Shown here one piece after another: positions 1,391 to 56,137 of a stretch of 64,000 bases of DNA. The first letter of the stretch is position 1. Every line of letters begins with the position of its first letter. The position numbers were made by a program, and so were the translations under genes. The stretch covers positions 124,001 through 188,000 of the forward strand of contig CT867994.1 of assembly GCA_000165425.1 (NCBI GenBank), read 5' to 3'. The notes under the pieces are model-generated. The model ran no database searches and was not told where the DNA came from. It saw nothing but the letters and a program-made list of their open reading frames with translations. Source of the DNA: Paramecium tetraurelia (lineage: Eukaryota).

Positions 1391-1951
1391 ATGGATTTTA
1401 AAACTCGATTCTAAGGGAGAACTACTACGATGGATAAAAATGGTGTTATTGGGATAGTATCAAGGGCTTCATAGCCAATCAATAAGTAAAGCGAGGCACC
1501 CCTCATCACAACCAACGTGAATACGTATTAAAATCCTCCATCATACTATTTTCAGAAGTTCCAAAGGAATGCTCAGAAAGTGTTATAATCGGATACGGAT
1601 ATCGATTTAACACCCTCAACGAGATCTGATTATCCATCTTATAAATTTAGACATGACTTCCAAAAATTGAATATGGATGAATATGAGATTGTTGCAATTC
1701 CTAAAAAGGCTTTGGAAGGTGAGAAATATTCAATGACTCACTCCTTTGTTCCACTCATGAATAAGGGAATGGGTTACATGCCGAATTCAAATGTGGCTCA
1801 GAGTTAGCAGCTGATGAAAACTCACTCGAATAACAGCTATTCAAGATAGTTGAAGAATGCGAATCCAATTCAGAATGCAAATCCTTTTATTTAGGCAGGA
1901 TACGGAGCACTGAAACAAAAATAGTTATATTTACAGAATCTAAAAAAGTGA
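1391..1951 (+). CDS. Hypothetical protein (186 aa)
   Basis: Uninterrupted ATG-to-TGA ORF: MDFKTRFQGRTTTMDKNG...YLQNLKK*. Confidence 0.65.
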
Positions 1952-2056
1952 TTTTGACTAAGACTATTTATTGTTATAAATATCAAAATAGTTATAAGTT
2001 ACATATCCTTGTTTTCAATCCTCACTTTTTATATAATTGCATAATATTAATAATTA

Positions 2057-5000
2057 ATGTAATCTGTTGATTTTGCAAAGCAAGTCCTGGGAGAACCGCT
2101 GCGTTGCATTGTCCGAATTAAGCCCCCTTCCAACTTTCAGAAGGAGGACGTGCGAATCAACAATTAACAAATACTACTTACTGACAACAATAGAAGTATT
2201 GCTCATCGTTGATTATTAATCCTCTAGTTTTGGAAGAATTCGAATGTCCTGAAGCTTATGGGCCTGAATTCTCCATGCATCAAATCTACGAGCAGTTCTT
2301 GCAATAATTTACGGGTCCCTTCATCCAAGGATTGAACGTAAACATATTCGCATATGGGTAGTGAAATTAAAAATAAAACTTAGATCTACAGGAGCAGGCA
2401 AAACGTAAACTATTGAAGGGAACAAGAAAGAACATGGACTTATATTGAACTATGCATCCTCAATATTCTCTTTATTAGAAAACAAGAAATTTCATACCAA
2501 TCAATCTTAGGCATCCTAACTTGTCAATTATTCATATGGACTCAGAGCCAGATACGTTGAAATCATAGATGAGGAAGTGTCTGATCTATTTGCCCCTCCC
2601 AATAAACGATTGAATGATCAATTATAAATCTTAGATCATGCATGGGAAGGACCCACAATTGCCAATGCCACTTGGGTGACTGTCAACAATGAAATCCAAT
2701 TATAGGAAGCCCTTAACAGTGGATAAAGAAACCGTAATCAAACTACAAATGAATTTGGTAAAGTGTCTAACAAGTCCACATCCTTCTTTACCCTCGAACT
2801 ACTACAAAGTTCACTCTAAAAAGACACCAATGAACCTTTGATTATGTTATCCAGACTATGTTTCTTTGATTTAGCAGGATCTGAGGTTCTGATTGATGAC
2901 CCAGAAACCATAAGGATTAAACAAGGATCTACTTTGAACAAATCCATAATTTCATTTACTCAATTACTCAAGGAATTGGGATAGCCATAAACTGCAGATC
3001 ATGCTGCTTATGATACTTCTGCTCTAACTTCTATAGTGAAAGAACTAGTTGGTAGTAATTCACTTTCGATTGGCATCTTTTGTGTATAGCATGGAGATCC
3101 GAAAGGAACCAGTTTGACTCTAAACATATACAAATATTGCAAGAATATCAAAAACTTCCCAATAGTCAATGACAGTAAGGTCCTAGGTCTATTGCACAAA
3201 TTTCGATTGGAATGCCAAGCAGCTAGATTGTCTGGGAGAGGTGGTTATGGAGATACTGGAAACAATAAGATGTTGGAGTTGGAGAAGAAATTGATAGAGG
3301 ATAATTTGGATAAAATGAGGAATGCAGATGAAAAACAAAGAATGGCTTAGAAATTATCAACGATGAGGGAGAAGTATAATGAAATTGTGAGATAGAAGGC
3401 AGAATTGTAGTAGGAGTTGATTAGGAGTGAGGAGGAGAAATTAGAAGTCTCTAAGGCTTTGGTGGAGTTACAAATTGAGAATACAAGGTTGATGGAAATT
3501 ATATAGAATGAGAAGTATGATATGAATAATAAATTGTTGAATGCAGAATCAGATCTATTGTCCTTGAATATAAGGGAGGAGAAAGCCTTGAAGTCTATTT
3601 AAGAGTTGTAAGATAATTTAAAAGAAACCAAGGATGACAAGAGAGCCTTGGAGATTGAATTTGTTGCTCTCAAAAAGAATTACATCAATATCTCTACTGC
3701 TTTAGAAACTGAGAAAGCCAAAAGCGAGAACATAGGATTAGAATTAATTAATGTAGTTAATGAAAACAAATCTCTTCATTAAGAATTGAATGATATCTAC
3801 AAGAAATCTGGAAATACAAACGAAGAAAATGCTAGATTTATGAAGAAGTATACTTATCATTTAGTTTAGAATTGAAAAATTAGAGCAAGAAAACCGAGAA
3901 CAGAGAGAAGCTCTCATTTATACCAAGGCTGAAATTGAGAGATTGAAAACTGAAATGCTTAAATACGAAATCCTAGATTAACAACATAGAATTGATCTAG
4001 ATAACAAGAAGTTGGAAATTGAAAAAGGATTTCTTGAAGCAAACAGAGAAAAACAGAATGAAGTATATAAAATGAATAGAGAATAAGATGATGCTGTCAA
4101 AAAAATGAGAGATGAAAAATTACTATGGGAAAGTCAAAAAATGGAATTAACCCATAAAATCAAAAGCATGCAAAGAAGAGTCAATGATGAAGAAGAAAGA
4201 GTTAAGGAACTAGAAAGATAAGTGCAAGAATTACTATCAGAAAACTAAAAAATGGATCTACAAATGAATGAAATGAGATCACTCTATAGAAATAAACTTA
4301 TGCAATTTGCTACAGATGGTAAACCAGATAAAGCAAGTAGAATTGGATATGATTTCAATGCCAGAGAAGATCTCATTAGAACATATACTGAAAAAGAAAT
4401 TGAATTAAATGAAAGATTGGAAAGAGAAAAGAAAAACTCTAAATAAGTTTCATTACAAGTCCGATAACTTAAAAGCTATGCAAGGAATTTAAAATATCTT
4501 TGTGAAGATTGGGCTCCAGTCGGAATTCCTTTACCAGATATACTCACAAAAGATGTTACCTTCTTAGATGATGAAACCTATGGTACTTTATAAGGAGATC
4601 ATATGGCTGAGATTGAAAGATTGAGAATGAGGAATAAAAAGCTGGAAAATGAAGTTAGAATTCTATAGGAAAACATCATGAATGGAGTTGGAGGAGGTAG
4701 TATGGATTTAAGTAAAAGAATATCTAATGAAATGGATATGTTAAAATAAAATAGAAATAAATAATCCATAGATGGAGACTTTTAGATTGATCAGTTGAGA
4801 AAAGAAAGAAACGACTTACAAGAAGAAAATAGAAGATTAGTGACTTTATTGAAAGATAATAAAAAGTGGGATGTTTACATTTTATAAAGAGAAAATGAAA
4901 GGCTAATGAGATAAATGAAAGAATAAGAAGTAGGATTAAATTCAGTTGGACCTATGTCTGGAGAAGCAAAGGGTGCTTAATAAAGGGTATAATATATTCC

Positions 5001-5187
5001 TTATAAATTCTAGTTACAAATGTACGAAAGATCACTCAAACAATTAGAAAAAGAGAGATCTGAACTAATTGTTAGAGCCACAATGGCTGAAGAGTAGCTT
5101 AAAGCATTACAGGAACATTTATCAAAATAAAGCTAAGATTATTAAAGAAAGCTCTTAGAAATTAAAAGAGGTGGTAGCATATTCTGA
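2057..5187 (+). CDS. Divergent kinesin motor domain plus long coiled coil with CCDC78/DUF4472-like segments (~1007 aa)
   Basis: CIVRIKP, P-loop FAYGSTGAGKT, switch II FFDLAGSE and LNKSI. Introns 2196-2227, 2358-2383, 3848-3869 and 4987-5013 give an exact reading frame. Tail motifs EEEKLEVSKALVELQIEN and LEKERSELIVRATMAEEQL. Confidence 0.85.
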
Positions 5188-5746
5188 TCAAATTATAATT
5201 ATTTTATTATAACAAATGAACTTAAATATAAACATTAAGTATAAAAGTAAGTCAATTCTACTTATAATGGCTTAAATTAATAGAATGACTACTTTCCCTC
5301 AAATTCACAATAATTTTATATTTTTCTATTTAATTGATAAATTAGTGATAATTAGTAAATATAATTCTAAGATCAATATTTATATTAAGAAATTGTCTAT
5401 ATAATTTTATGAAGTAATAAGTTAATTAATATTTTTAATTCTGAATTATCAACAAAATATCATAAAAATTTATCATAAATGCTGAATGAAAAATGCAAAG
5501 CTGCTTTTATCAACCTGGAAATTTGATTCATTCTTTTTATGTTAGTCTTTTCGAATAACTTACTAATAGCATTAGCAATATTCTTTCATGATGTTTTTGT
5601 TTTAAATTACTGAATTCATCATATATTGAGTTGCACTATCTTGTCTTTACCCTAAATTACGCATGTATAAACAGAATTATAAAAACTTAAATAAGTAACA
5701 TTAATTTGTATTTGAAATAATATTCATTATCTAAGTCTTTAATAAA

Positions 5747-10512: not shown

Positions 10513-11802
10513 TCACTTCCATACAGGTTTACTGTTGATGATTGATTGTATGAAAGTCTCATCAGTTTTCAATTATCCTGGGGATGGATATCTAAATCCT
10601 TTGGCTTTGTTGGTTTGCATTAATTAGGTCAATTTAGGAGGATTGTTACCTGAGGAATAGAATTAAATGAAAGTACCTTTTACAACAGGTGAGAATTGAC
10701 GATATGGAAAGGGTACTGGTTTAGGTATATTTATGGGAGGTTGAAATTCAGGCTATCTAGAATAGGGAGTATTTATACACATATGCAGATCTAGGTCTGT
10801 CTGTAGGATCTCTTTTTTGTTACTTCAGAGATTGAGATTTTCCTGATTGTTTAAGTTTTTGTTCTTAATGTTTTTTTAGACTATCATTTTATTGTCTTTT
10901 GATAATACTATTATTAGGCTTGATTAATTGATGATTTTCCCTGGAATTCAGAATGGAATTACATTTTTCTAGTTCTTCTTTTAGAGTGACATAATTATTA
11001 ACTGTAACATGATAGATATTTCCATTGATATTATTTTGGCTATTTAATTTAACAGCATGTTTTGGATTTGTCTATTTCATTTTTTTAAATGATTTTTTAG
11101 CAATAGATTCATCTGCCCAAGAAATAGCTCTTATTCTATTTTCATTGAGATATTAATTGAATATTCTTCTATCTAACCAGCAAGAATCAGCTGGACTAGA
11201 CTTTGCATTCATAAATGTATTCCTGAGAAGTTGTTCATCCTCTTCTAGAGGTAGATCCTGCTCTTCATTAGGTTACCATGAACTAGATAGACCTCCGAGT
11301 CCCTTCTTACATAATTTGGATTCCAATTAAGATAATTAATGATAGAAATTCGCCCTAATTTCAAGATCTGGTCTTCTAGAGTTGAGGAATTCCAAAGTCT
11401 TATACAGTTTCCATTTATATTTTCTCATAAAGTAGGCAGTAAGTGCACAACAAGAACGAGATTGTCCTCTTACTGAGTGAACCAGAACAGATTCTCCATT
11501 GTTATGCGCTTATTCAATAAATTGATAGATTTCATTAGCAGTTTCATTTGGAAATAGTATTTACTTATTCATGATATAAAGGATGTACTTGTTCATTCTC
11601 TAGCCAATTAAATTTTAGATAGATAACACCGTAGTTTTCGAATACGCATGGTAGTTGTTTGGCTGCACAGTTAATAATTCGAGTTACTTTGTTCTGGATG
11701 ACAAATTCAAGATCCTTTTAAGTTATGATGATATGCTACTTTAGAGGCTAATTCGTCTCCTATGAATAGACCATCCTTCACTTTAATTGCTCCAATTATC
11801 AT
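10513..11802 (-). CDS. Dual-specificity phosphatase-fold protein with catalytic Cys replaced by Ser
   Basis: IKVKDGLFIGD, KVTRIINCA, GESVLVHSVRGQSRSCC, AYFMRKYKW and RRPDLEIRANFYHQL; ends PVWK*. Confidence 0.85.
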
Positions 11803-11840
11803 TATTTTTTTAATTAGTAATAAATTTTGAAATTTGAAAA

Positions 11841-13494
11841 ATGGAATCGATGCCTAAATTGTCAGAAATTCAAAAAGAATTGCAATTTTACACTAGATTC
11901 TTCTAAGAAAACAAGCTCTATAATTCTAGCAAGTGGACAGGTGAGTTACTATTGGGATTGACTCAAGAAGAAGATTTATAATAATCTTAATTTGCAATGC
12001 AATTTATCCAAAACAATACAGATTACAATTATCATTTCATAAGAGAGTTCGTTCCTGAATACAATGATATCATTTTGGTAGCTAGAAATCTATTTGATTT
12101 AAGAGAGTTCAAGAAATGTGCATCATTATTATAAAATCTAATTCATAAAAATGAATCAGCAATGTTCCTCTATTATTACTCTCAATATATGTATGGAGAG
12201 TTGAGAAAGGAGGAAGAAATGTTTGAGAATGAAAACTCAAAAACAGCCACAAATCCAGAGCTTAAATTATTGGAAAGGGAATTATCAAAACTATATAATC
12301 AAAAGCATTTAAATTCATTGAATCTGTATTTGTATGGACTAATACTAAAGGATACAATGCGATTAAGAGAAGCAAGAGAAGTTTTCATTTAGGTTTTGCA
12401 TTAATTACCATGTTTTTGGAGTGTTTGGTTAGAATTATGTAAATTATTAACAGAAGAAGACACTTTAGACGAATTACCTAATCATTGGATGAAATCCTTT
12501 TGGAGTTCCAACTTTAATTTGGAAAAGTTTAAAAATGCAAATTGCGTTGAATAATTTTAGACATTACTATACTACTTTAGAAATTCAAATTTTATAATAA
12601 ACTAAATTGCTAATGCTTATTATAATAATCAAGAATTTGAATTATCACTTGAATGGTTTGAAAGATTGTTGAGTATTGATCCTTACAGATTTGAGAGTTT
12701 AGATACATATTCGAATATATTGTATATAAAAGAAAATTAAGGTGAATTAGCTAATTTAGCATTATAATCCTTTACTAATAACAAGTATGTACCAGAAACT
12801 TGTTGTGTAGTCGGAAATTATTATTCTCTAATGAATGAACATGCTAAGGCAATTAATTATTTCCAAAGAGCACTCAAATTAGACAAAGATTGTCTGGCAG
12901 CCTGGACTCTGATGGGACATGAGTATTTAGAAATGAAAAACGTTGCTTCTGCCATTTAATCATATAGAAATGCTGTTGAAATTGATCCTAAGGATTTCAG
13001 AGCCTGGTATGGATTGGGTTAAACATATGCTTTATAAGGAATGAATCAATATGCTCTGTATTACTTTAGTAGGGCTGTGATTAGTAGACCGAAGGATGCA
13101 AGAATGTGGAATGCCATGGCAGAATGTTATGACAAGATGGATAAGAAAAATGAATCAATGAAGTGTTACGAAAGGGCTAATCAATGTAAAGATAAGGAGG
13201 GCATTGCTATTCATCAACTGGCAAAGTTGTATGATGCAGTGGTAAGCCTATGCATTTCTTATGGATTAGGGTAAAACAGAGAAGGCTTTGTCAGCCTTTG
13301 AGGAGAGTTTGAGGAGGAAAGATGAGGAATAAATAGTCGACAAAGAGTTGTCAGAATCTTTAGTGTATTTGGCAAGGGCTTTCTTGAGGAGGGGAGATAA
13401 GGAGAGGGCTATGCAGATGGCTAAAAGATTATATGATTTCAATGGGCCAGAGAGAGACGAGGCCAATTTAATAATGAGTTAGTTAAATAAATGA
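11841..13494 (+). CDS. CDC23: Anaphase-promoting complex subunit 8 (TPR protein)
   Basis: [59 protein letters not shown] and [12 protein letters not shown]; intron 13242-13269. Confidence 0.95.
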
Positions 13495-17384: not shown

Positions 17385-18710
17385 TCACTTCTAAGCAATT
17401 TTTGTCTTCTCTCTTTACTACGAAATTATCTGATTTAACAAGTTCTATTCTTTGATAGCTTCCAATCCAGACAGTTGTTGAACTCTCTTGAGCATTGAAA
17501 TATTCAGTTTATTGGCAGTAGGTTTATCCTTGGCTACTTGAGGGTTATTATATTCTTGTGATAGAAGTTATCTTGGCAATTCAACTGAGTGATTAAGATG
17601 CTGCAATTGTTGTTTTTATTGTCTTAACAATTTTTATTTGATTTAATTTGAGTTAAGTTGTTACAAGGAGATGAAATTATTATTCTCATTAGATTCTGGA
17701 TTGTTGGTTGTTGATTTAAATTTGAGTATTTTGCCTTGAATTTCAAAATCGTTTATTCTTTCAATTGAATGTTATTTATATCTTGGAACTTGTGTTATTT
17801 GTTTGTGATCAGAAACGGATCTCTTTTATTTCTCATTTTGATATCCCTGCACACTGTGATACCTATTACTTTTGACAATTTTCAAGGGGGAATTATTCAA
17901 CAGCCTTTGCTCCTAATATTCTTTTAAATATAAATCATCTTCTTCCTATTCTTATTCTTCCATCAAATCCTAAAGGAAATCTGTAACCATAGGTAATTGA
18001 TTTAAGCTTTCCCATGTCAGACCAGTATGTCTTTATTGTGAAGAGACATTAAAACTCTAATCCTATTCCTTTATAGAAAAGGTTTTGGGTTTGGAAGGAT
18101 CAGGTAATTTCTCAATCAGTTCTTTTAAGGCTGGGTATTTAATTAACAGTTATGATTTAGTAAAGTGTTTCAGTTCAAATTACAACTTATAAAAGGCTTT
18201 CTTTTTTCTTTCTATGAGTTTCAATTATTCATTTTATTGTTTCCTTTATAATAAAATTTATTTGATTTATTCATCATTTTTGACCTCTGGATGATATATT
18301 TTAAATTGATATTTGATATCTTTAATTCTTTCAGCTTAATCTTACATTTAAAATGGTCTTTGAAATGTTTTCATTTTTTAAACACAAGCTTTCCAGTTGT
18401 CCAATCCTAAACTTGTTAAATATTGTCCACAATTTGTCCCTTCTTCGCCTGCCAAGATATTTAACAATTAAACAAACTAATCAAAATTTAGCTCCTTTGA
18501 ATTTTTAGCTTGCCTTTTGAATAACTCCAATAGTTTCGAAGTATTTATTTTCACTTAAAAATCCCTACAAAAATGCATCCAGTTACCAACAGTAAATACA
18601 GTGGCTTCATATTATTATCTATCAAAGGTGGCAAATTATCCTGGAACATACTACTGTTTGCAATAGAAGTCAAAAACTCTGCGTAAAACTTCTTTGTTTT
18701 GCATAATCAT
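17385..18710 (-). CDS. Conserved ciliate hypothetical protein
   Basis: MIMQNKEVLRRVFDFYCKQQYVPGQFATFDR...WMHFCRDF. Start is 18710 or 18704; TGA at 17385-17387. Confidence 0.65.
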
Positions 18711-19552
18711 TATTTTTATATATATAATTGCTAAAATTCTTCAATATTTTCATCCTCCTCTATCCATCTAACCCTTTTCCCCATATTCCATTCCCCTCTC
18801 TTAGTAATTCCATCTTTAGTAAATAAGCCATAACCATGTTGCTTCCCCTGATGCCAAAATCCAACATATACTCTACCATCTGGCCAAACAAATCTTCCTA
18901 TTCCCTCTTTTAATTCATCTTCATAGGGTCCATCATATAGACGACCATCTGGCCATTTCATAATTCCATTAACAAACTGATTCTTTACCCACTCTCCTCT
19001 AAATTCACTCCCATCAGCCCATTTAAAAATGCCTTATCCATGAATATCCCCCTCAAAAAAGTCTCCTCTATAATAAGATGAGTCCACAAATTCAATGTAG
19101 CCTTTGCCGTGTCGCTTGCCATCTTTATAATTCCCCTTATACACAGCCTCATCAGAAAATCGTTCAGAACCACTGCCATTTTACAAATTATGTTCCCATT
19201 TGCCTTCATAAATTGACGTATTGGTCTTCAATTAGCCCTGTCCATGGCATTCCCCCTGTTAAAAGGTGCCAATATAGAGATAGTTTTCAGCCGATAGTTT
19301 TCCTTATCCATGAAAAAGGCTATTCTCAAAGAAACCCTCATATCTCCTGCCATCATCCATAACCAAAATACCCCAGCCATGCATTCTATTATCCTCCATT
19401 TAACCATGATATCGTCCGCCCTCCACTATAATCCAATCTCTCTATGTTTGCTCATCATCCTCTTCTGTTCTATAGAGGTGATGCAAATTTAAATAAGTCT
19501 CATGCAACACCAATTCTCTTTAATTAACAGACTAAGATGTGCAACAACCCAT
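18707..19552 (-). CDS. MORN-repeat protein with N-terminal MGCC acylation-like motif
   Basis: Repeated YEG..W/F.....HG.G...WPDG units; the frame continues past the ORF-track end through TAG/TAA codons to TGA at 18709-18707. Confidence 0.9.
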
Positions 19553-24734: not shown

Positions 24735-26223
24735 TCACTTAATTTTAAAAGTTTGTCTATATTTTTCTTTTCCTTTTTCACCTTATATGTATCCTCATGA
24801 ACAATCTCTGATGCATGATAGTCTGAAACTTATTGTTTTGTTTCAACAACTTTATAGGCATTTGCTGAATCAACATGAAATTTTAGTTTATGATTCAGCC
24901 AATGATATTTATCATTTTAAATTTTCTCATCCTTGAGTCTCTCTTGAAACTTTCTTACTTTTTCCTCAAATGCCTCATTATGGGATTGTTCTTTCATATT
25001 TTGGATAAACCTTGCTCTCCTTTATTCCACAGTAGATTATAGCATTTTTTCATGTTGTAACCTATCTCTAATCATGGGATTATTTGATCCAAATTTATTC
25101 TCTTTAAATTACAGGAAGTCTGCTTTTAATTTTTCATATTCCTCCAACTATTTCTCTCTTTATTATCTTTATTCTTCATCTTCGATTTCTGAGGATTCAG
25201 ACTCAGAAGATTCTGATTCTGATTCATTGAAAATGTATTGAACTTCTCCTTTTGCATTCTTTTTAATTTTGTAATTTAATAATTGTTTATCTTCAGCTGG
25301 GATATTTTCTAAATACTTTTCATTCATTGATATATTTTTATTAGCATACTAAGCAATCTATTCTTTGTTGATTTAAGTGTTACTTTATTGAGTAATCTTT
25401 TATTTGAGTTAGAGAATCTTATTTTCTTCTTCTAATTTCTTCTGTTTTTTAATCCTATGTAAATAATGAGAAATAAATACTCTAATTCTTCTTGGGATAC
25501 AGCAAATTCCTTTTTCAATTTAGGATCATTAAGTACATCATGACTATTGAAGATCTTATTTGGTTATTGTTCCTCATTATCTTCTTCGTCACCAAAGGAC
25601 AAGACATTGATATTTTTTTACTTCTATTTAGGTTTTTAAATTGGTTTCTAGTTTATTTTTTCTTAGACTTAGTTAATTTCTTTTTCAGGAGATTTTGGCT
25701 TAACCCCCTCGGTGATTGTCAAATTAAATGGATCTATAACTACTTATGCACTTTTTATAAAGATTGGTGTCACTGGCTAATCATTTTCATCGGTGTCGAC
25801 TCCATTCATAGCCATCAAATTGAAAATGGTCTTTCCTACTACCATGCCAAATATCGTATGTCTCTTTTACAACCAAGGACAAGAATCCAATGTTATAAAA
25901 AACTATGACTCATTGGTATTAGGACCTTCATTACTATATGCTAGAATTCCCCTTGTGCAAAAAGTGAGTCTGGAATGAAATTCATCTTCAAATGGTTAGC
26001 CATACATTGATTTTCCTCCCTCTCCTGTTCCTGTGGGATCACCTCCTTGAATCATGAAATTAGGAAACAATCTATGAAAGCGACAATTATCATAATATCC
26101 ATTCAAACACAATTGAATGAAGTTTCTGCATCCCTTAGGCACTTCCTTACACCATAATTCAATTTCTAATTCTCCATGGGATGTATCCATAATAATCTTG
26201 CCTGATGTTTATGGAAATTACAT
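24735..26223 (-). CDS. CWC27: Spliceosomal cyclophilin-type protein
   Basis: GKIIMDTSHGELEIELWCKEVPKGCRNFIQLCL...QGGDPTGTGEGG...FEDEFHSRL, then LSFGDEE and a C-terminal HKLKFH. Confidence 0.9.
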
Positions 26224-26230
26224 TAAAATT

Positions 26231-27481
26231 TCAATAAATTAATAATAACAATTTAATAACAATCAATAATAGCAGAGAGGCCCCAGAGAAAATTAAGGTT
26301 TGTTTCATTGTTTAATGGCCAAAAAAATTCACAAAGGGCTTTAGACAATATGCTATAATTATACAATAACATATCTGAATAAGGTACTGATTAAAGTACA
26401 TTCCCAAAAACATTGAAGCTATAAAAGTTAGGTAAAATACAAGTAAGCATGTTCCCATTGTGGTTTTTGCAACTGAAATATTGAATGATAATTACTGAAT
26501 TGCATTAAGTCATCAAACAGATCTATAATTAGGCATTGGGATAGCATAATGAACAAAACTGAAAGGATTGTCTTTTCTTAAACGCCTGCAGTATATCCAA
26601 GTATGATCTGTAGGACGATCAATTCGCCAATTATTAATTTAATTCTCGTTTAAATATGAGTGTCTGGTTTGCTTTGATTGTCAAGAGAGAATGAATTTTC
26701 ATTTAAGACTTGAGAATGAATTGTTTTCAAATTAGCTGGTTTTTATTCTGATTCTTCAATTACTCCCAAGTGTCTTGCATTTGCTAATTATTTATTGCTA
26801 TACTATGAATACAATATTTTTTCAGGCTTTTTACTATCGATTGTCTAAATTAAAAGATTATGATACAAATTATAATTTATTTAGAAGATCTGATTAATTA
26901 TTTAAATAGCTGTTCTTAATTTCATCAATAGACTTCCTTTTTTCTATGTTATTGTTGCGAATATAACTTTCAATTCTCAGAATCTCCTCGCTTCTATCAG
27001 GTATGTATTCTGAGACATTTTTTGCTTGAAAAATAATAGGATTGGTAGGGTATTCATTGGAAACAGCCAAATTATTATTGATTTCCTTTCCCTAAGACTC
27101 TTTGCAATTGATCTGTGCAATCAGATAAATTTCTTTGAACAATAAAACTATAGGAACTAACAACATCAGTTTGTATTTCACCGAAAATTCCTGATTTACA
27201 TAAGCAGAAAGTGTTTCTCGTTGGGCAGTCGAAAGTTAATCTATTAAATGAACTACTCGCAAATATTAGTGGTCATCTAAAAATAAATTATGCTGTAATT
27301 CTAATCCATTAGGAATCAGCAAGGGGAAAATTATCAGAATGGATGAATAAAAAAGCAGTCTTCTGGCAAAGATTAAGATCTAATCTGATATCTATTCATG
27401 CTTAAACTACTTTATCGAATAAACCAAATAGGTAATCCAAATAAATGCCAAACTAGCAACTAAGTTTATAATATAATTCAT
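26231..27481 (-). CDS. Multi-pass membrane protein (3+5 TM layout), possibly a degenerate ZIP-fold transporter
   Basis: Three N-terminal hydrophobic segments, a long polar loop and five C-terminal hydrophobic segments. Introns ~26846-26867 and 26473-26495 give an exact frame (~401 aa). Confidence 0.6.
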
Positions 27482-27699: not shown

Positions 27700-29094
27700 A
27701 TGAGGTTATCTACTGAGGATAGTCAAGAGAATGAGGATCAATAGGAGGATCTCAAAAAGAAGTTCATTTATTAAACTGAAAAAATGAGACTATTACTCGA
27801 AGTACCTATAGAAAAGCGAAATAAAACAATATGTTAGGATATCGCTTAAATCGCAGGAGTAAGTGATGTTATGAGTATTTAAGGAAATTCAATTTCTGAA
27901 ACAGTATAGGGATAAACCAAATTTCTTAGATTTATGCAAGCATCTGTTTCTAAAGACTTATAATAAAAGAGATTATATTTTTTAATAAGGTGAAACAGGT
28001 GATGCTTTTTATGTTATTTTAAGTGGAAGTGTGAAGGTCTTTATTGAAGAGCCGACAGAATTCAGGAATTTTATGTAGTTGGTAACGTATACATTATGAT
28101 ATAGAAAGAAATTGCAATTTTATAAAAAGGAGATGCATTTGGAGAAATTTCTTTGCTTTACAATTCCAAGAGAACAGCTGCTGTGATGGCTGCAGAAAAA
28201 AGTGACTTGATTATTTTGACTAAAGAAAGCTTTGAGGAATATTTAAAGAATGATAACAAATAAGAAATGTAAACAGCGAATTTAAATAAATTAATTCAAT
28301 TCTTAGAAAAAGTTCCAATTTTTAAAATGTTCTCAAAATCCTTATTAGTATAAATTTGTACCAAATGTACAATGGAACATTTCCCCTCCCAATAGATTTT
28401 GATTAAGCAAGGAACTGAACCATCCAATATGTACATAATTAAGTAGGGGAGCGTTAAAGTGATTAGAAAAATTAAATTAAATTATGGTAGTATGACTACA
28501 AGAGAGGAATTGAGTCAAAAAAAGTAGGACTTATTTTATGACATCGATGAACTTAGTGATCACGATGTTTTTGGAGATTATGCAATTTTAAATGAAGTGG
28601 AATCTGAATGTTCTTACATAACAGCTATTCCTTGTTAAATTATATCAATAAGTTCATTCAATGTGAGGAAGCTTCTCCCTATGGACATTGTGTAAATTTA
28701 CAAATCGTAACTTAAACGTTATCCTGACGATGAAGATATTTAGTATTTATTTGAGGAGAAGGAGAGGTGGAATCATTATAAGAGGAAACTCATTCGAAAT
28801 ATCAAGATTGAGAAGTAGAATAAAAAGGGATTTGATCTGAGATTGAGATTGCCAGAACTGAAAACCAAAGAATTGTCACCACCTATCAATATCGTTGACA
28901 TCAAAACGAGTGATAGCAGAATCTATTTTAAATTCTTGGAATCAAAAATTAGTCCCATGGCAGACAGCAAAAAGAAGGTTTCTTAGTTAAGTTAAGTTGG
29001 GTTCAATTCACAGATCATTAAGGATTTGGAATTCTCATAGGCTCAATAAGCCTTTCAAAGAAAACTCAAAAAATTATAATATAAAAAGTATTGA
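27700..29094 (+). CDS. Tandem cyclic-nucleotide-binding domain protein
   Basis: IFQQGETGDAFYVILSGSVKV...GDAFGEISLLYNSKRTAAV; second CNBD LIKQGTEPSNMYIIKQGSV...VFGDYAIL. Confidence 0.85.
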
Positions 29095-32365: not shown

Positions 32366-33728
32366 ATGGATTAGAAACTTAATGATGCTGAAATAGCACT
32401 TGAACAATTCAGACTGAAGAAACTCATTAAAACTTTGAGCCAGGAAAGAACTGCTGGCACAAGTGTTGTGTCTGTTTATATTCCTCCCAAAAGGATCATT
32501 TCCGATATCACAAACAGACTCAATACCTAGTATGCAGAAGCAGCCTCTATTAAGGACAAGGGAAACAGAATATCTGTGCAAGAAGCTATTTAAGCAGCTA
32601 TCCTAAGTATTTAAGTGAATTTATCCAAGGACTAAGACCATACAACAAGGCTCCAAACAATGGATTGGTGGTTTTTTGCGGTATTGTGTAGTAGGCAGAT
32701 GGCAAAGGAGAGAAGAAAATTTCAGTTGTCATTGAACCTTATAGACCCTTGGATCTATCTCTGTATTTTTGTGATCCCCAGTTCCACGTGGAAGAACTGA
32801 GAGCCCTCCTAAACATAGATCCACCTTTTGGATTCATTATTATGGACGGTAATGGATCATTGTTCGCCACAATCCAAGGAAACAGCAAATAAATTATAAA
32901 GTCTTTCGATGTTGATTTGCCAAAGAAACACAACAAGGGAGGTCAATCTTCAGTCAGATTTGCACGTCTCCGTATGGAAAAAAGACATAATTACTTGAGA
33001 AAGGTATGCGAAACAGCAACCACATGTTTCATTGCTGAGGACAGACCAAATGTCAAGGGTTTAGTCTTAGCAGGTTCAGCTGATTTCAAAAACGATTTGG
33101 CTGGAAGTCAATTCTTTGATAAGAGATTATAGCCTTTGATTATTTCAGTGGTGGATATTAATTATGGTGGAGAATAGGGATTGAATTAAGCAGTGTAATT
33201 GAGTTAAGAATCTTTGTTGGAAGTCAAGTACATCAGAGAAAAGAATTTGGTTGGTCAATTCTTTGAGAATATCGATAAGGACACTGGTTTGGTAGTGTAC
33301 GGTGTTTAGGACACAATGAGAGCAGTTGAATCATAAACAATAAAGACTTTAGTTTGTGTAGACACTCTTTAATATTTACGTTTGGAATGTTAGAGCAAAT
33401 AAACTGAATGTATGATATACTATGTTATTCTTTAGAAAAAGCAATTAAATACATTAAAGGTAATGAGGGATATGAGGCTGGTTCATTGATTGAAGAGAAA
33501 AATGGAGAATAATTTGTCATTCTTGTAAAAGAGGACTTAGTTGAACATCTATCTGAGAAATTTAAGGATTATGGATTAGATTTTCAATTAATTACAGATC
33601 ACAGTGTTGAAGGTAATCAATTTATGAAGGGTTTCAGTGGATTAGGAGGATTTTTAAGATTTAAAATGGACATGGATTATTTAGTCTAACAGGAAGATTG
33701 GAAAGATGAAGATGAAGACTTTATTTGA
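32366..33728 (+). CDS. eRF1: Eukaryotic release factor 1, ciliate variant (437 aa)
   Basis: GTS, EAASIKD, YFCDPQF and [19 protein letters not shown]; introns 32607-32629 and 33410-33435. Confidence 0.97.
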
Positions 33729-40024: not shown

Positions 40025-42833
40025 ATGAAATACGGCGACTTTTAGAGACTAATTTCAGAGGAAGATGAACTAGTTTAAATATCCAAGGCTTAGTTGGAAT
40101 AATTAATTCTAAAAAATTAGCAATCTGAAGTACTTCCAACTCAAAAATAATCCAGCAAAAAAATTGTCATAAAATAGGCCTCAAAGAAACAAAAACATTA
40201 TTAATTTGCTGATGTTCACTATTGGACAATTACGTAATTTGATTGGGATAAAAAAGTACTGGATGCCTTGAAGGGAGCATTTGGTAAAGAATAATTTAAA
40301 GCAAATTAAAAGGCCATAATAAATTGTGTATTAGCAGGAGAGGATGTTTTTGTTTGTATGCCGACTGGATATGGAAAAAGTATAACCTTTTAAATTCCTG
40401 CATTTGTAGAGAATGGTACAATTCGACCTGATATTTAGGGGTTTCGATTATTGTTATGCCATTGATTTCATTGATATTTGATTAAGTGCAATATCTCACA
40501 AGTCTTGGTATTCCAACTCTCAATATGAGTGGCTAAAACAGACTTTTAACAGCATAGTAAATTCTGGATTAAAGAATAAAATTAATTTACACTACTCCTG
40601 GTATTATTTAATTTCAATTTAGAAAAAATTGAGATGATCTGAAGCTTTTAAATCAATATTAGGAGATCTCTTTAATAGAAAGTTAATTAAAAGATTTGTA
40701 ATCGATGAAGCACATTGTGTAAGTAAATGGGGAAGAGATTTTAGACCAGATTACCTAAAATTGAGCAATGTTAGAAATGAATTTCCGGGGGTGCCTATCA
40801 TTGCTTTGACCGCCACTGCTCCAGAAGAGGTTAAAGAAGATATTATAGATGTGCTTTAAATTAAAGGATGCTTATATTTATAATCTTCCTTCAATAGACC
40901 AAATCTTATCTATGAAGTCAAATTAAGAGAAGAATTTAAGAGGACTGTTTAAGAAATTAAAGAATTTATCAACTTAACCTATCCAAAGCAATCTGGTATC
41001 ATTTATTGCCTCACTTAATCTGAATGTTAAACCTTATCATAAAGCCTGATACAACATGGAATAGGATCAGATTTCTATCATGCTGGCCTTACTGAAAATG
41101 AAAGACATAGGATTCATAAGAATTGGCTGATGAATGAAGTACAAGTAATAGTTGCAACAGTAGCATTTGGCATGGGAATTGATAAAAAGGATTGTAGATT
41201 CGTCATTCACTTTCAAATGCCAAAATCCATTGAGAATTATTATTAGGAGAGTGGGAGAGCAGGAAGAGATGGAAAACAAGCACATTGCCTTTTATTTTAT
41301 AATAATAGTGACTATAAAACTAATTTAGTATTCTTTATCATTTATTCTTTTTATAGTGTCTAATGGATTTAAACACAGAAATGACTACTCCAATGAAAAA
41401 GTACAATGTTAAAAAGTTAGATTAAATGCAATAATTCTGTTATGATAGAGTTTAGTGCAGAAGAGTTTTACAACTATCTTATTTAGGTGAAAATTTTGAT
41501 AAAACATTATGTAACAAAAAATGTGATAATTGTCTAAGAGATGATGAGATGACAGAGAAAATTGATTTAACTAAAGAAGCTCTTAAAATTCTTGATTGTT
41601 TGGATAAATTACAATTGACAGAAAATCAATTAATTTAATGTTTAAAAGGTGGACAAGACAAAAAGAAATCCCATAATTCATTGAAGAGTTTTGAATAGAT
41701 CTTTGGACTATTTAAAAATAATCCTCGCTACATCAATCCTTTATTAGATTAGTTAAGAGCATAAAATGCCTTAAGCTAAAAAGTATAATAATACAATCTA
41801 AAAGGTAATTTCAAAACTAAAGTTGTCTATTTAATACCTAATTATGAAGCATCAATAAATAGTGTAATAATATCCCTTCCCAAAGAAAAAGACAAAAAAC
41901 TATCTCTTTTGGATTGCAAATCTAACGATCTTTTTAAAAAGTATTTATCGAAAGATTATAAAAATTAAAATAACAGTGGATCTAATTTGAATGTTTTAAA
42001 AAAAGATTTTACTTGGTAGAATGAAAACAAAATTGAAACTGAAAAGAAAAAATTATAATATGATAAATAATATGGTTATTGTTTAGAAAACTAATTTAAT
42101 GATTTACGTGAAAGATTAATGTTAGTTCGTAAGAATATATATAAAGAAATGACCAATAATGCATCGAATTAAATCATTAATATTGATTTGGTTTTATCTA
42201 CTGATGATATTGAAGAATTATGCAAGAAACTTCCGATCTCTATGAGTGAATTAAATGACCCATTTATTTGTATAGCCTAAGAAATTAAAAAATTGTAATA
42301 TATGAAGCATTTTATTGAAGAAGTTGCTCATTTTGTTGATATTGAAGATATTAATAAGTTATTATTTGAAAAGCGTAAGCATATTTTCTATTCTAGCTTA
42401 ATAGGTTGAAACATAAATTGATTAAGTATTTGAGTTTTAAAAGCATATTAAGCAAGATGATGATGTGATTGATATTACAAATTAAGAACTTATTGGTAAA
42501 ATACAAAAATATAACATTTAGCTAAATAAAAAGAGATAGAAGAATTATTGTTAAATGGTTAAGAGAATGATGAATACTTAGATGAAGTATCAAATTTATT
42601 GAAATTAGCTATTAAATCTTTTTGAAGAAGAAGATATAAATAAATCTCCTCAAGTCGTTATCCATGATTAAGAAAATGGTTAAAATCAAAAATCACATCT
42701 ATAGAAGGTGTAAACTTTTGAGCCTGTAGAATAATAATAGCCATATTAATAAGATCTAAAACAAACTTGTAAAATTGAAAGTAGTTAGTAACCCAAAAAG
42801 CTCAAATTAAATCTCAAAAGATCATTTTTGTGA
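40025..42833 (+). CDS. RecQ-family DNA helicase (BLM/Sgs1-like); apparent +1 frameshift near 40635
   Basis: [57 protein letters not shown] and Zn-binding CRR...CDNC. Confidence 0.92.
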
Positions 42834-47673: not shown

Positions 47674-47956
47674 TTATGTATATAATTATTAAAAAATAAT
47701 TCATTCTGATTTAGATTAGAACATACCAAATCCACCTAAAAGCCTTCCATTTAAGAAAAACCAAAAATCACTCGTGATATGGGAATAGATGCTGATCAAC
47801 AATTCAAGTCAATTTAGAGCTAAGGAATACTAATAAATGGATGATGAAACTGATTCTAAGTGTGAATATTGTGCATTAGACTATATCTGAGAAGTAGATT
47901 ACAAAATGAAATGAAAAATCTAGGATTGCTTGTATATAATTTAAGATTAATAATAA

Positions 47957-56137
<8,181 letters not shown>

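What the first reader, a model, noticed from the sequence alone, without database searches (positions are those of the whole stretch)
2057..5187. Kinesin motor fused to a CCDC78-like (deuterosome-type) coiled-coil tail
Seen: one continuous ORF joins a kinesin motor to a tail containing EEEKLEVSKALVELQIEN (~3429-3483) and QLEKERSELIVRATMAEEQL (5041-5100). From memory these closely match the DUF4472 region and the C-terminal RATMAEEQL segment of animal CCDC78, which has no motor domain and has been implicated in centriole amplification in multiciliated cells. Inference: a motor-linked CCDC78 homologue that could act in basal-body duplication or positioning in a multiciliated protist.
Basis: partly seen in the sequence, partly recalled or inferred. 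Interest (0 to 1): 0.75.

Follow-up and report, generated by a model that had tools for sequence, protein, structure and literature searches.

The report
Paramecium kinesin with CCDC78 tail
This expressed Paramecium gene joins an unusual kinesin motor head to the coiled-coil tail found in animal CCDC78; the same protein is already known from Tetrahymena cilia, where it points to a role at the ciliary tip, not in basal-body duplication.

Summary
Window 2057-5187 (+) is one gene read with the ciliate code. It has five exons and four tiny GTA..TAG introns, and encodes 1007 aa. All 1007 residues match Paramecium tetraurelia XP_001425228.1. Pfam finds a Kinesin motor (E 2.7e-37) and a full-length DUF4472 (E 7.5e-35) inside a single exon. 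The C-terminal RATMAEEQL box also occurs in vertebrate CCDC78. Spliced transcript contigs span the whole gene.

It is not new in kind. It is a Paramecium co-orthologue of Tetrahymena I7LVY1, a "kinesin with a CCDC78 domain" that is at least four-fold reduced in FAP256/CEP104-knockout cilia (2023). A 2025 paper cites I7LVY1 as the motor-bearing homologue of vertebrate Ccdc78, a protein of the extreme ciliary tip that bundles microtubules. A ciliary-tip role is therefore better supported than the deuterosome or basal-body reading.

My survey adds three points:
- The fused form is widespread: ciliates, oomycetes, Plasmodiophora, Cyanophora, Mantamonas, a choanoflagellate, amphioxus, a hemichordate and a crinoid. 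Bony-vertebrate CCDC78 looks like the headless derivative.
- None of 48 family heads keeps the SSRSH switch-I motif.
- The standard kinesin phylogeny excluded the Paramecium gene as "divergent".

No localisation or motility data exist for Paramecium.

The parts
2057..5187 (+). Coding region of the kinesin-CCDC78 gene. Five exons: 2057-2195, 2228-2357, 2384-3847, 3870-4986, 5014-5187. Product 1007 aa; TGA stop at 5185-5187.
   Evidence: sequence and frames. (comparison with the annotated Paramecium protein); spliced product is 1007/1007 identical to P. tetraurelia XP_001425228.1, with 29 TAA + 12 TAG in frame and 0 TGA; transcripts.
2051..5228 (+). Minimal mRNA extent seen in spliced transcript contigs (5' UTR at least 6 nt, 3' UTR at least 41 nt).
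   Evidence: table 8: contig of run X4 covers 2051-2195 + 2228-5228; contig of run X7 covers 2063-2195 + 2228-5227. Stranded oligo-dT reads have the first mate on the - strand, so the RNA is on +.
2196..2227 (+). Intron 1, 32 nt, GTA..TAG, shifts the frame.
   Evidence: joint 2195>2228, GT..AG, in 2 contigs and 2 raw reads..
2358..2383 (+). Intron 2, 26 nt, GTA..TAG. It lies inside the P-loop codons. The deposited P. tetraurelia model has one extra residue (Q91) here, as a 23-nt intron would give.
   Evidence: 26 letters left out after 2357 in both contigs; the only difference from P0430 is the extra Q91; the 23-nt length is inferred from that residue.
3848..3869 (+). Intron 3, 22 nt, GTA..TAG, shifts the frame.
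4987..5013 (+). Intron 4, 27 nt, GTA..TAG, in frame and without TGA, so it is invisible to ORF reading.
   Evidence: annotated orthologue lacks these 9 residues; 27 letters left out after 4986..
2057..3179 (+). Divergent N-terminal kinesin head, aa 1-355, including a neck-linker-like end NFPIVND (3153-3173).
   Evidence: PF00225 E 2.7e-37 on exon 3; whole protein P0430 scores 159.8 bits over aa 42-348; best solved relative is the KIF1A motor at only 89.6 bits; coordinates.
2356..2405 (+). P-loop GSTGAGKT (canonical GQTxxGKS/T). Intact GxxxxGKT; spans intron 2.
2766..2780 (+). Switch-I position reads SNKST instead of SSRSH (Arg to Lys, His to Thr).
   Evidence: alignment to KIF1A; 0 of 48 family heads keep SSRSH; 3 of 3 reference kinesins do..
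2868..2885 (+). Switch II DLAGSE, canonical.
   Evidence: exact DLAGSE in 1 of 48 family rows, the Paramecium row; DxxGxE in 15 of 48..
3426..3746 (+). DUF4472 (PF14739), the signature domain of CCDC78, aa 438-544. It follows the head after a spacer of about 85 aa, in the same exon.
   Evidence: E 7.5e-35, profile 1-107/107...
3747..5025 (+). Long E/L/K/R-rich, proline-poor stalk with no Pfam family, presumed coiled coil. It has short Gly/Pro breaks, including a block EDWAPVGIPLPDIL (4504-4545) that survives in the majority consensus of the 35-row family alignment.
   Evidence: no Pfam hit above threshold; consensus keeps EDWAPxGxxLPxIL; 5 Pro in the 652-aa tail; aa 474-752 aligns with Xenopus CCDC78 aa 4-257. 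Coiled coil is inferred from composition, not folded.
5026..5163 (+). Conserved C-terminal box (aa 955-1000), LEKERSELIVRATMAEEQL..LQEHL....YQRKLLEI. Shared with vertebrate CCDC78 and with the fused proteins of Mantamonas and Cyanophora. Not covered by any Pfam family.
   Evidence: E 5e-6 to Xenopus CCDC78. [RK]AxxAEEQ in 133 of 456 stored proteins...

Best explanation
The gene is Paramecium tetraurelia GSPATT00028865001. It is one of two Paramecium co-orthologues of Tetrahymena I7LVY1 and belongs to an old eukaryotic family in which a divergent N-terminal kinesin head is joined to a CCDC78-type tail. The tail has DUF4472, a long coiled-coil stalk and a conserved C-terminal box.

Most likely mechanism:
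- The protein dimerises through the stalk.
- It sits at the distal (plus-end) tip of motile cilia, probably on the central-pair or cap microtubules and downstream of CEP104/FAP256.
- It holds on to microtubules through its head.
- Its tail bundles microtubules and recruits tip partners of the CCDC33/C2D1 type, which stabilises the tip and helps set ciliary length.
- Because the head has an intact P-loop and switch II but a non-canonical switch I, I expect a nucleotide-gated anchor or a slow tip-seeking motor, not a long-range cargo transporter.

Shown here: the gene structure, the single mRNA, both domains, orthology to I7LVY1, homology to CCDC78 at two separate regions, and the state of the motifs.

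Taken from papers on other species: dependence of ciliary abundance on FAP256 (Tetrahymena); tip localisation, microtubule bundling, the Ccdc33 partnership and length control (vertebrate Ccdc78).

Inferred: that the Paramecium protein does the same, that it dimerises, and how the head behaves.
For: Identity and structure:
- Searches give the gene model.
- One search shows spliced contigs with all four introns removed, and RNA reads across every bin of the gene.
- One search finds Kinesin (E 2.7e-37) and DUF4472 (E 7.5e-35) in one exon.

Orthology:
- the best non-Paramecium hits are Tetrahymena P0002 and Pseudocohnilembus, 58% identity, E about 4e-169, same Pfam pair.
- P0002 is UniRef100_I7LVY1.
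- in the head-only tree the window gene and the second Paramecium paralogue group (98) are sister to Pseudocohnilembus + (Tetrahymena, Ichthyophthirius).

Homology to CCDC78: (two colinear regions); the amphioxus fused protein's tail hits vertebrate CCDC78 at E 1e-94.

Function in relatives:
- (PMC10522465, passages): I7LVY1 is among proteins reduced at least 4-fold in FAP256A/B-KO cilia. It is described as a predicted kinesin likely to bind central-pair microtubules in the cap, with a CCDC78 domain.
- (PMC12796433; abstract, sections 8 and 9, passages): Ccdc78 marks the extreme distal tip in frog, mouse and human cells. [quoted passage not shown] The authors name I7LVY1 as its motor-bearing homologue.

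Head:
- P-loop GSTGAGKT and switch II DLAGSE are kept; switch I is SNKST.
- The head sits at the N-terminus with a neck-linker-like N..VN end, as in plus-end-directed kinesins. That link is established kinesin knowledge, not tested here.

Distribution: every named taxon with the fused form builds cilia or flagella at some stage (the cilia statement is my own knowledge).
Against: - There is no localisation, knock-down or biochemical datum for the Paramecium protein.
- In the passages I read, the Tetrahymena evidence is mass spectrometry of isolated cilia (mutant against wild type), not imaging. The 2025 paper's phrase 'observed in the distal tips' rests on that study.
- The preprint on the tip central-pair structure has no occurrence of 'CCDC78' and only two of 'kinesin', both in its reference list. 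The Protein Data Bank holds no relative of the tail. So it has not been seen on the central pair.
- Vertebrate Ccdc78 also acts at deuterosomes, and its knock-down lowers basal-body number. A cytoplasmic or basal-body role in ciliates is therefore not excluded.
- Ciliate heads keep more catalytic motifs than other lineages, so real motility is possible.
- Dimerisation and the coiled coil are inferred from composition only.
Confidence: 0.6

Rival explanations
1. First reader's reading. The protein works at basal bodies in a multiciliated protist, in duplication or positioning, as a motor-linked counterpart of deuterosomal CCDC78.
For: Vertebrate CCDC78 localises to deuterosomes. It is needed to recruit CEP152, and its knock-down reduces basal-body number (the Klos Dehring 2013 paper itself was not held). 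Cep104 and other tip proteins are also present at basal bodies, so dual localisation is common.
Against: Ciliates make new basal bodies next to old ones and have no deuterosomes (my own knowledge). Deup1 arose within vertebrates. The Tetrahymena orthologue was detected in isolated cilia and depends on a tip protein. The fused family also occurs in organisms that are uniflagellate or biflagellate to my knowledge and need no centriole amplification, such as Mantamonas, Cyanophora, oomycete zoospores and a choanoflagellate (taxa; flagellar number not from a call).
Confidence: 0.1
2. It is a fully active, plus-end-directed transport kinesin. It either carries cargo along the axoneme or delivers itself and partners to the tip. 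The divergent motifs are merely lineage noise.
For: The head is N-terminal. P-loop GxxxxGKT and switch II DLAGSE are intact. In ciliates switch I keeps Ser-x-Lys, a conservative Arg-to-Lys change. The end of the head looks like a neck linker. Motorless vertebrate Ccdc78 pulls down the IFT kinesin subunit Kifap3, as if it now needs a lift that the ancestral head provided.
Against: 0 of 48 family heads keep SSRSH. Only 30 of 48 keep the P-loop and 15 of 48 keep DxxGxE. Oomycetes have lost the P-loop yet keep the protein, so the family's conserved job cannot need ATP turnover. The L12/alpha5 microtubule-binding motif YRDSKLT reads YDTSALT here. The best match to any solved kinesin motor is only 89.6 bits.
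Confidence: 0.2
3. It acts on non-ciliary microtubules, either cortical or cytoplasmic arrays or endosome traffic. The 2023 table lists Kif16B, 'early endosomes', as the human homologue of I7LVY1.
For:: the table gives Kif16B at 29.75% as the human match. In my PDB search kinesin-3 motors (KIF1A) are the nearest solved heads. Over-expressed Ccdc78 bundles cytoplasmic microtubules.
Against: The resemblance to kinesin-3 is confined to the head and is weak (84 bits to KIF13A against 132 bits to the Cyanophora family member). No FHA, PX or PH domain is found. The tail is CCDC78-type. The protein was found in cilia.
Confidence: 0.06
4. The fusion is an artefact: two neighbouring genes, or a mis-joined gene model.
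For: None found.
Against: Head and DUF4472 share one uninterrupted exon. Single spliced contigs of 3071 and 3058 nt from two runs cover start to stop. The same layout occurs in 55 of 77 relatives, including ORFs derived from transcriptomes. One alignment runs through head and DUF4472 between Paramecium and amphioxus (E 2e-59).
Confidence: 0.01

Closest known systems
Tetrahymena thermophila I7LVY1 (XP_001020566.3), 'kinesin motor catalytic domain protein' of the ciliary tip/cap proteome
   Same: Same domain order and spacing (Kinesin, then DUF4472, then a long stalk). 58% identity over exon 3, E 4e-169. Same switch-I type (SSKAT/SNKST) and the same DLxGSE. Sister ciliate clade in the head tree.
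   Different: Paramecium has two divergent co-orthologues: this gene, and a 983-aa group at 45% identity. The deposited T. thermophila model ends in an unrelated C-terminus and lacks the RATMAEEQL box, which T. malaccensis has; this is probably a model error. Functional data exist only for Tetrahymena, and only as mass spectrometry.
Vertebrate CCDC78 (deuterosome and extreme-distal-tip protein of multiciliated cells)
   Same: DUF4472 is matched over the whole profile. The stalk is colinear (E 7e-10) and the C-terminal box matches at E 5e-6, with RATMAEEQL identical in a cat-family CCDC78. Both are linked to motile-cilium tips.
   Different: Bony-vertebrate CCDC78 starts about 40-50 aa before DUF4472 and has no head (4 of 4 scanned). 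Its deuterosome role has no counterpart structure in ciliates (my own knowledge). Microtubule bundling by the tail alone is shown only for the frog protein.
Fused kinesin-DUF4472 proteins of other eukaryotes (amphioxus 'CCDC78-like' 925 aa, Glandiceps, Antedon, Salpingoeca kvevrii, Cyanophora, Mantamonas, Aphanomyces/Saprolegnia, Plasmodiophora)
   Same: Same architecture, with DUF4472 starting near aa 405-510. The heads fall on one side of a branch against kinesin-3/-7-type references (SH-aLRT 100). The C-terminal box is present in Mantamonas and Cyanophora.
   Different: Their heads are more decayed. Amphioxus has switch II RLPGAE. Oomycetes lack GK[ST] in the P-loop. My motif search did not find the C-terminal box in amphioxus, the hemichordate, the crinoid, oomycetes, Plasmodiophora or the choanoflagellate.
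Tip-localised kinesins that organise the cilium tip or regulate its length (kinesin-4 KIF7, kinesin-8 KIF19A, kinesin-13)
   Same: It may work like them: a kinesin head used at axonemal plus ends to shape the tip, not to haul cargo. The families are named in the introduction of PMC10522465. That KIF7 is essentially immotile is my recollection.
   Different: It is not a member of those families. The P. tetraurelia gene was left unassigned ('ND, divergent') in the 2010 kinesin phylogeny. Its tail is CCDC78-type. No depolymerase signature was looked for.
Kinesin-17 and Kinesin-9 (cilium-restricted kinesin families in Wickstead et al. 2010)
   Same: The phylogenetic pattern is tied to organisms that build cilia.
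   Different: The 21 Kinesin-17 rows (14 assigned, 7 near-identical duplicates in brackets), 7 of them Paramecium and 3 Tetrahymena, are other genes with canonical heads and 2010-scale Pfam scores of 330-540. This gene scored 7 and was excluded.

Membership tests
Kinesin superfamily (PF00225) | Significant match to the kinesin motor profile over most of its length | tested here: met
   E 2.7e-37 on exon 3 (profile 84-326), with a weak match on exon 2 (profile 42-81); whole protein 159.8 bits against a cutoff of 29.3, over aa 42-348. The score is well below the 197-204 bits of the best-scoring relatives in the same scans.
Kinesin superfamily (PF00225) | P-loop GxxxxGK[ST] | tested here: met
   GSTGAGKT at 2356-2405. 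Kept in 30 of 48 family heads.
Kinesin superfamily (PF00225) | Switch I SSRSH | tested here: not met
   SNKST here. 0 of 48 family heads have SSRSH; 3 of 3 reference kinesins do.
Kinesin superfamily (PF00225) | Switch II DLAGSE | tested here: met
   Exact DLAGSE at 2868-2885. DxxGxE is kept in only 15 of 48 family heads.
Kinesin superfamily (PF00225) | Microtubule-stimulated ATPase and motility | not testable with these tools
   Needs the purified head.
CCDC78 family (PF14739 DUF4472) | Full-length DUF4472 match above the curated cutoff | tested here: met
   120.2 bits against a cutoff of 26.6, profile 1-107/107, E 7.5e-35.
CCDC78 family (PF14739 DUF4472) | Similarity to bona fide CCDC78 outside DUF4472, in the same order | tested here: met
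   aa 474-752 against Xenopus CCDC78 aa 4-257 (E 7e-10), and aa 960-1002 against aa 399-441 (E 5e-6); the C-terminal box is shared.
CCDC78 family (PF14739 DUF4472) | [quoted passage not shown] | tested here: not met
   A kinesin head precedes the tail. This feature defines only the bony-vertebrate form: 55 of 77 relatives carry the head.
CCDC78 family (PF14739 DUF4472) | Localisation at the extreme ciliary tip and/or deuterosomes; microtubule bundling; binding to CCDC33 | not testable with these tools
   These are experimental properties.
Orthologue group of Tetrahymena I7LVY1 | Closest relative outside Paramecium, same architecture, and a tree consistent with species relationships | tested here: met
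   Paramecium has two co-orthologues (98 support for their pairing).
Kinesin-17 (considered and rejected) | Assignment in the reference phylogeny | tested here: not met
   GSPATP00028865001 is 'ND / divergent'. The Kinesin-17 rows are other Paramecium and Tetrahymena genes.

The most novel reading that the evidence does not exclude
Kinesin-CCDC78 is an unrecognised, ancient kinesin family that dates to near the last eukaryotic common ancestor and is tied to motile cilia. Standard kinesin classifications dropped it as 'divergent'.

Its head gave up the canonical switch I everywhere and serves as a tip anchor, a pseudo-motor, not a transporter. 'CCDC78' of bony vertebrates is this kinesin after losing its head, with delivery to the tip taken over by IFT kinesin-2 through Kifap3. 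On this reading the deuterosome role is a late vertebrate add-on, and the ciliate gene shows the ancestral job.
Probability: 0.4. Interest if true: 0.6.

Novelty: new member of a known kind. Interest (0 to 1): 0.4.

Why it matters
For this locus, the result gives an anonymous Paramecium 'kinesin motor domain-containing protein' a name, a corrected gene model and a testable job at the ciliary tip. Paramecium allows RNAi by feeding and easy read-outs of swimming and ciliary length (my own knowledge).

More broadly, CCDC78 has been called 'mostly limited to Vertebrata' and is proposed as a candidate locus for motile ciliopathies. Two findings here reframe what the human protein is: the same tail is attached to a kinesin head from ciliates to amphioxus, and that head never keeps a canonical switch I. 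They suggest that the tail's microtubule and partner binding is the conserved core. They also flag a kinesin family missing from the standard nomenclature.

The basic fusion was already published for Tetrahymena, so the locus itself is not a surprise to the field.

Tried and rejected
- Literature search for 'DUF4472': 0 papers.
- Search for the Paramecium gene identifiers plus one Tetrahymena identifier: 0 papers. The Tetrahymena identifier was my unverified guess and nothing rests on it.
- Kinesin-17 hypothesis: rejected. The single 'kinesin-17' mention in PMC6406257 calls it an anterograde IFT motor (which I take to be KIF17), not the family.
- The Tetrahymena orthologue could not be traced in the 2010 table by accession.
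- Word-index search with the Paramecium tail among shorter proteins: 111 hits, none carrying a CCDC78 name; mostly short unnamed entries that look like pieces of relatives of this gene. Vertebrate CCDC78 was reached only through the amphioxus tail.
- ESM Atlas: best feature score 0.89, no usable lead, no structure model.
- Protein Data Bank by sequence: no relative of DUF4472 or the stalk at E up to 0.01.
- No whole genome is held for the window, so paralogues and a CCDC33/C2D1 orthologue could not be sought in the same genome.
No fold and no dimer test were obtained.
- The look-up of sequencing runs listed no holder on record as RNA. The laid contigs and raw RNA reads are what I use.
- Earlier notes of this scan: none for this genome, and only unrelated giant-virus kinesins by words.
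- Papers not held: PMC12258958 and PMC3816757. I used the preprint PMC11642885 and secondary accounts instead.
- Head-only similarity does not by itself tie the Paramecium head to the animal heads: 82 bits to amphioxus against 84 to KIF13A. The link rests on the shared architecture, the single through-alignment and the tree. That tree has only kinesin-3/-7-type outgroups and long branches.
Full report
**What is there**

The window has about 28% G+C. It has no ORF of 80 aa or more in its first 8 kb under the bacterial code, but it opens up under the ciliate code.

Between 2057 and 5187 on the + strand lies one gene. I rebuilt its model from the sequence, from the annotated Paramecium protein P0001 and from transcripts.
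- Exons: 2057-2195, 2228-2357, 2384-3847, 3870-4986 and 5014-5187.
- Introns: 32, 26, 22 and 27 nt, all GTA..TAG and 66-81% A+T.

The spliced product is 1007 aa, with 29 TAA and 12 TAG sense codons and a TGA stop. All 1007 residues are identical to P. tetraurelia XP_001425228.1 / GSPATT00028865001. That model carries one extra residue, Q91.

The phrase 'one continuous ORF' is not literally true, because three introns shift the frame. However, most of the head and the whole DUF4472 share exon 3.

**Is it one expressed gene?**

I laid four runs on 1800-5500.
- Two runs kept as contigs each gave a single spliced piece of 3071 nt and 3058 nt. These reach from 2051/2063 to 5228/5227 and lack all four introns. 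They must therefore be RNA-derived.
- Two stranded oligo-dT RNA runs of 2026 cover every bin from 2048 to 5147 (X21 depth 1.3-8.3; X22 3.0-18.9), on the orientation expected for a + strand mRNA.
- A different transcript ends at about 1977-2005, so the intergenic gap is only about 50 nt.

The transcripts support a 26-nt second intron, which gives the P-loop GSTGAGKT. The deposited model has an extra Gln there.

**Domains**

Pfam on exon 3 gives Kinesin (E 2.7e-37, profile 84-326) and DUF4472 (E 7.5e-35, profile 1-107 of 107). The last two exons have no Pfam family. On the whole protein the scores are 159.8 and 114 bits.

The tail (aa 356-1007) is E/L/K/R-rich with only 5 prolines, consistent with a long coiled coil. 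I could not fold it.

**Homology to CCDC78**

The tail aligns with Xenopus tropicalis CCDC78 in two colinear pieces. Stalk aa 474-752 matches aa 4-257 (E 7e-10). The C-terminal aa 960-1002 matches aa 399-441 (17 of 43 identical, E 5e-6).

A motif search over all 456 proteins stored at that point found the box [RK]AxxAEEQ in 133. These include ciliates, the fused proteins of Mantamonas and Cyanophora, and vertebrate CCDC78. The tiger protein has the exact RATMAEEQL.

**It is already known in kind**

The closest non-Paramecium relatives are Tetrahymena P0002 and Pseudocohnilembus (58% identity, E about 4e-169) with the same Pfam pair. Of 33 hits in that search, 15 carry Kinesin + DUF4472 and 18 are ordinary kinesins at 70 bits or less. 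P0002 is UniRef100_I7LVY1.

Legal et al. 2023 (PMC10522465, passages read) list I7LVY1 among proteins reduced at least four-fold in cilia of FAP256A/B knock-outs. [quoted passage not shown]

Hong et al. 2025 (PMC12796433; abstract, sections 8 and 9, and passages read) report the following for vertebrate Ccdc78:
- It is needed for the other tip proteins.
- It binds Ccdc33.
- It bundles microtubules in vivo and in vitro.
- It controls ciliary length.

[quoted passage not shown] The same work confirms the deuterosome localisation and the loss of basal bodies on knock-down.

The preprint on the structure of the Tetrahymena tip central pair has no occurrence of 'CCDC78' and only two of 'kinesin', both in its reference list. 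No solved structure contains a relative of the tail.

**How widespread is the fusion?**

A full HMMER scan of 1.84 billion cluster representatives with the DUF4472 region found 265 proteins at E up to 1e-3 and listed the best 150. Of these, 77 are 400 aa or longer, and I scanned all 77 with Pfam.
- 55 carry Kinesin followed by DUF4472.
- 21 carry DUF4472 alone.
- 1 carries neither.

Several of the 21 are pieces of fused genes, since cluster mates of 1072 and 1103 aa exist.

I looked up names for 30 representatives, 19 of them fused. The named fused proteins (apart from Tetrahymena and Paramecium themselves) come from:
- Mantamonas plastica
- Cyanophora paradoxa
- Aphanomyces (two species) and Saprolegnia
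- Plasmodiophora brassicae
- Salpingoeca kvevrii
- four Branchiostoma species and two Branchiostoma hybrids (annotated 'CCDC78-like', 924-927 aa)
- Glandiceps talaboti
- Antedon mediterranea

One BLAST alignment runs from the head through DUF4472 between Paramecium and amphioxus (aa 15-549, 28% identity, E 2e-59). The amphioxus tail hits vertebrate CCDC78 at E 1e-94.

Two elephant-shark models keep only the last part of the head (profile 223-306) before DUF4472. Four bony-vertebrate CCDC78 proteins have DUF4472 alone, starting at aa 3-48.

I built a quick maximum-likelihood tree of the first 400 residues, using 32 family members and 8 references of kinesin-3/-7 type.
- The family falls on one side of a branch (SH-aLRT 100).
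- Holozoans (91), oomycetes (100) and ciliates (99) each group together.
- The second Paramecium paralogue group is sister to the window gene (98).

There are caveats. Only two or three kinesin families served as outgroups, branches are long, and six rows have odd composition. Head-only scores also tie Paramecium to Cyanophora (132 bits) and Mantamonas (119), but to amphioxus (82) no better than to KIF13A (84).

The simplest reading is one old fusion inherited vertically, with the head lost on the line to bony vertebrates. A 2021 survey had called CCDC78 'mostly limited to Vertebrata'.

**The head is unusual**

The best solved relative is the KIF1A motor, at only 89.6 bits. The head compares with KIF1A, KIF13A and CENP-E as follows:

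| Motif | Canonical | This gene |
|---|---|---|
| P-loop | GQTxxGKS/T | GSTGAGKT (intact) |
| Switch II | DLAGSE | DLAGSE (intact) |
| Switch I | SSRSH | SNKST |
| L12/alpha5 | YRDSKLT | YDTSALT |

Across 48 family heads:
- 30 keep GxxxxGK[ST].
- 15 keep DxxGxE.
- None keeps SSRSH, which all three references keep.

Oomycetes have no GK[ST] at all, and amphioxus reads RLPGAE at switch II. The family's conserved function therefore cannot depend on a canonical ATPase cycle. Ciliates kept the most, so some nucleotide-dependent behaviour is possible here.

In the reference kinesin phylogeny the P. tetraurelia gene is listed 'ND, divergent' and was excluded. The cilium-restricted Kinesin-17 family consists of other genes.

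**Most likely function, and rivals**

I commit to a ciliary-tip role. The protein would be a coiled-coil dimer whose heads hold plus-end or central-pair microtubules. Its CCDC78-type tail would bundle microtubules and recruit a CCDC33/C2D1-type partner, downstream of CEP104/FAP256, stabilising the tip and helping set length (confidence 0.6).

Shown here are the gene, the mRNA, the domains, the orthology and the motif states. Everything about place and activity is carried over from Tetrahymena mass spectrometry and vertebrate experiments.

Rivals:
- An active self-delivering or cargo motor (0.2).
Ciliates lack deuterosomes (my own knowledge), the Tetrahymena orthologue was found in isolated cilia, and the family occurs in organisms that are uni- or biflagellate to my knowledge.
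- A non-ciliary microtubule role (0.06).
- A gene-model artefact (0.01, excluded).

**Verdict**

The locus is a new member (the Paramecium co-orthologue) of a published kind. The added value lies in three things: the corrected model, the evidence that the fused form is the ancestral and widespread one, and the family-wide loss of switch I. I could not see Supplementary Fig. 11 of the 2025 paper, which may already cover part of the evolutionary comparison.

Noticed in passing
window 2358-2383: The deposited P. tetraurelia protein (1008 aa) has an extra Gln inside the P-loop (GQSTGAGKT), as a 23-nt second intron would give. Both spliced transcript contigs remove 26 nt, giving GSTGAGKT as in the sibling Paramecium species shown. 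The public model is probably off by one codon.
   Followed up: yes
protein P0002 (Tetrahymena thermophila I7LVY1), C-terminal ~110 aa: The T. thermophila model ends in an unrelated sequence and lacks the conserved RATMAEEQL box. The 1024-aa T. malaccensis protein in the same 90% cluster has the box, as do Pseudocohnilembus and Ichthyophthirius. The published I7LVY1 model probably mis-reads its 3' end.
   Followed up: partly
proteins P0336 and P0414 (Callorhinchus milii): Elephant-shark models carry only the last third of a kinesin head (profile 223-306) in front of DUF4472. They may mark an intermediate stage of head loss in vertebrates, or they may be incomplete gene models.
   Followed up: partly
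protein P0261 (unnamed, 1998 aa): One relative extends the kinesin-DUF4472 core with EF-hand pairs and DUF4116 repeats at the C-terminus, which suggests a calcium-linked variant of the family.
   Followed up: no
window 1800-2056: The upstream + strand transcript ends near 1977-2005, and the kinesin mRNA starts by 2051. The intergenic spacer is therefore only about 50 nt. The upstream ORF (1391-1951) has no Pfam family.
   Followed up: partly
window 32404-33489 (+): ORF with eRF1 domains 2 and 3, the stop-codon recognition factor, in an organism that reads TAA/TAG as Gln. Domain 1, which reads the stop codon, was not in the piece scanned.
   Followed up: no
window 47915-55815 (+): A run of very long ORFs (367, 992 and 1316 aa) ends in PH-BEACH, BEACH and WD40 domains. 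It is probably one giant BEACH-domain gene.
   Followed up: no
window 10748-13301, 18707-19552, 25324-26262, 28048-29094, 40638-42409: Ordinary neighbours: dual-specificity phosphatase (-), APC8/Cdc23 TPR protein (+), MORN-repeat proteins, cyclophilin (-), cyclic-nucleotide-binding protein (+) and a RecQ-type helicase (+). None has an evident link to the kinesin gene.
   Followed up: no
window 2999-4236 (- strand): Long antisense ORFs (258, 194 and 183 aa) overlie the coiled-coil coding region under code 6. They are most likely by-products of having a single stop codon and repetitive composition. RNA reads are almost all in the orientation of a + strand mRNA.
   Followed up: partly
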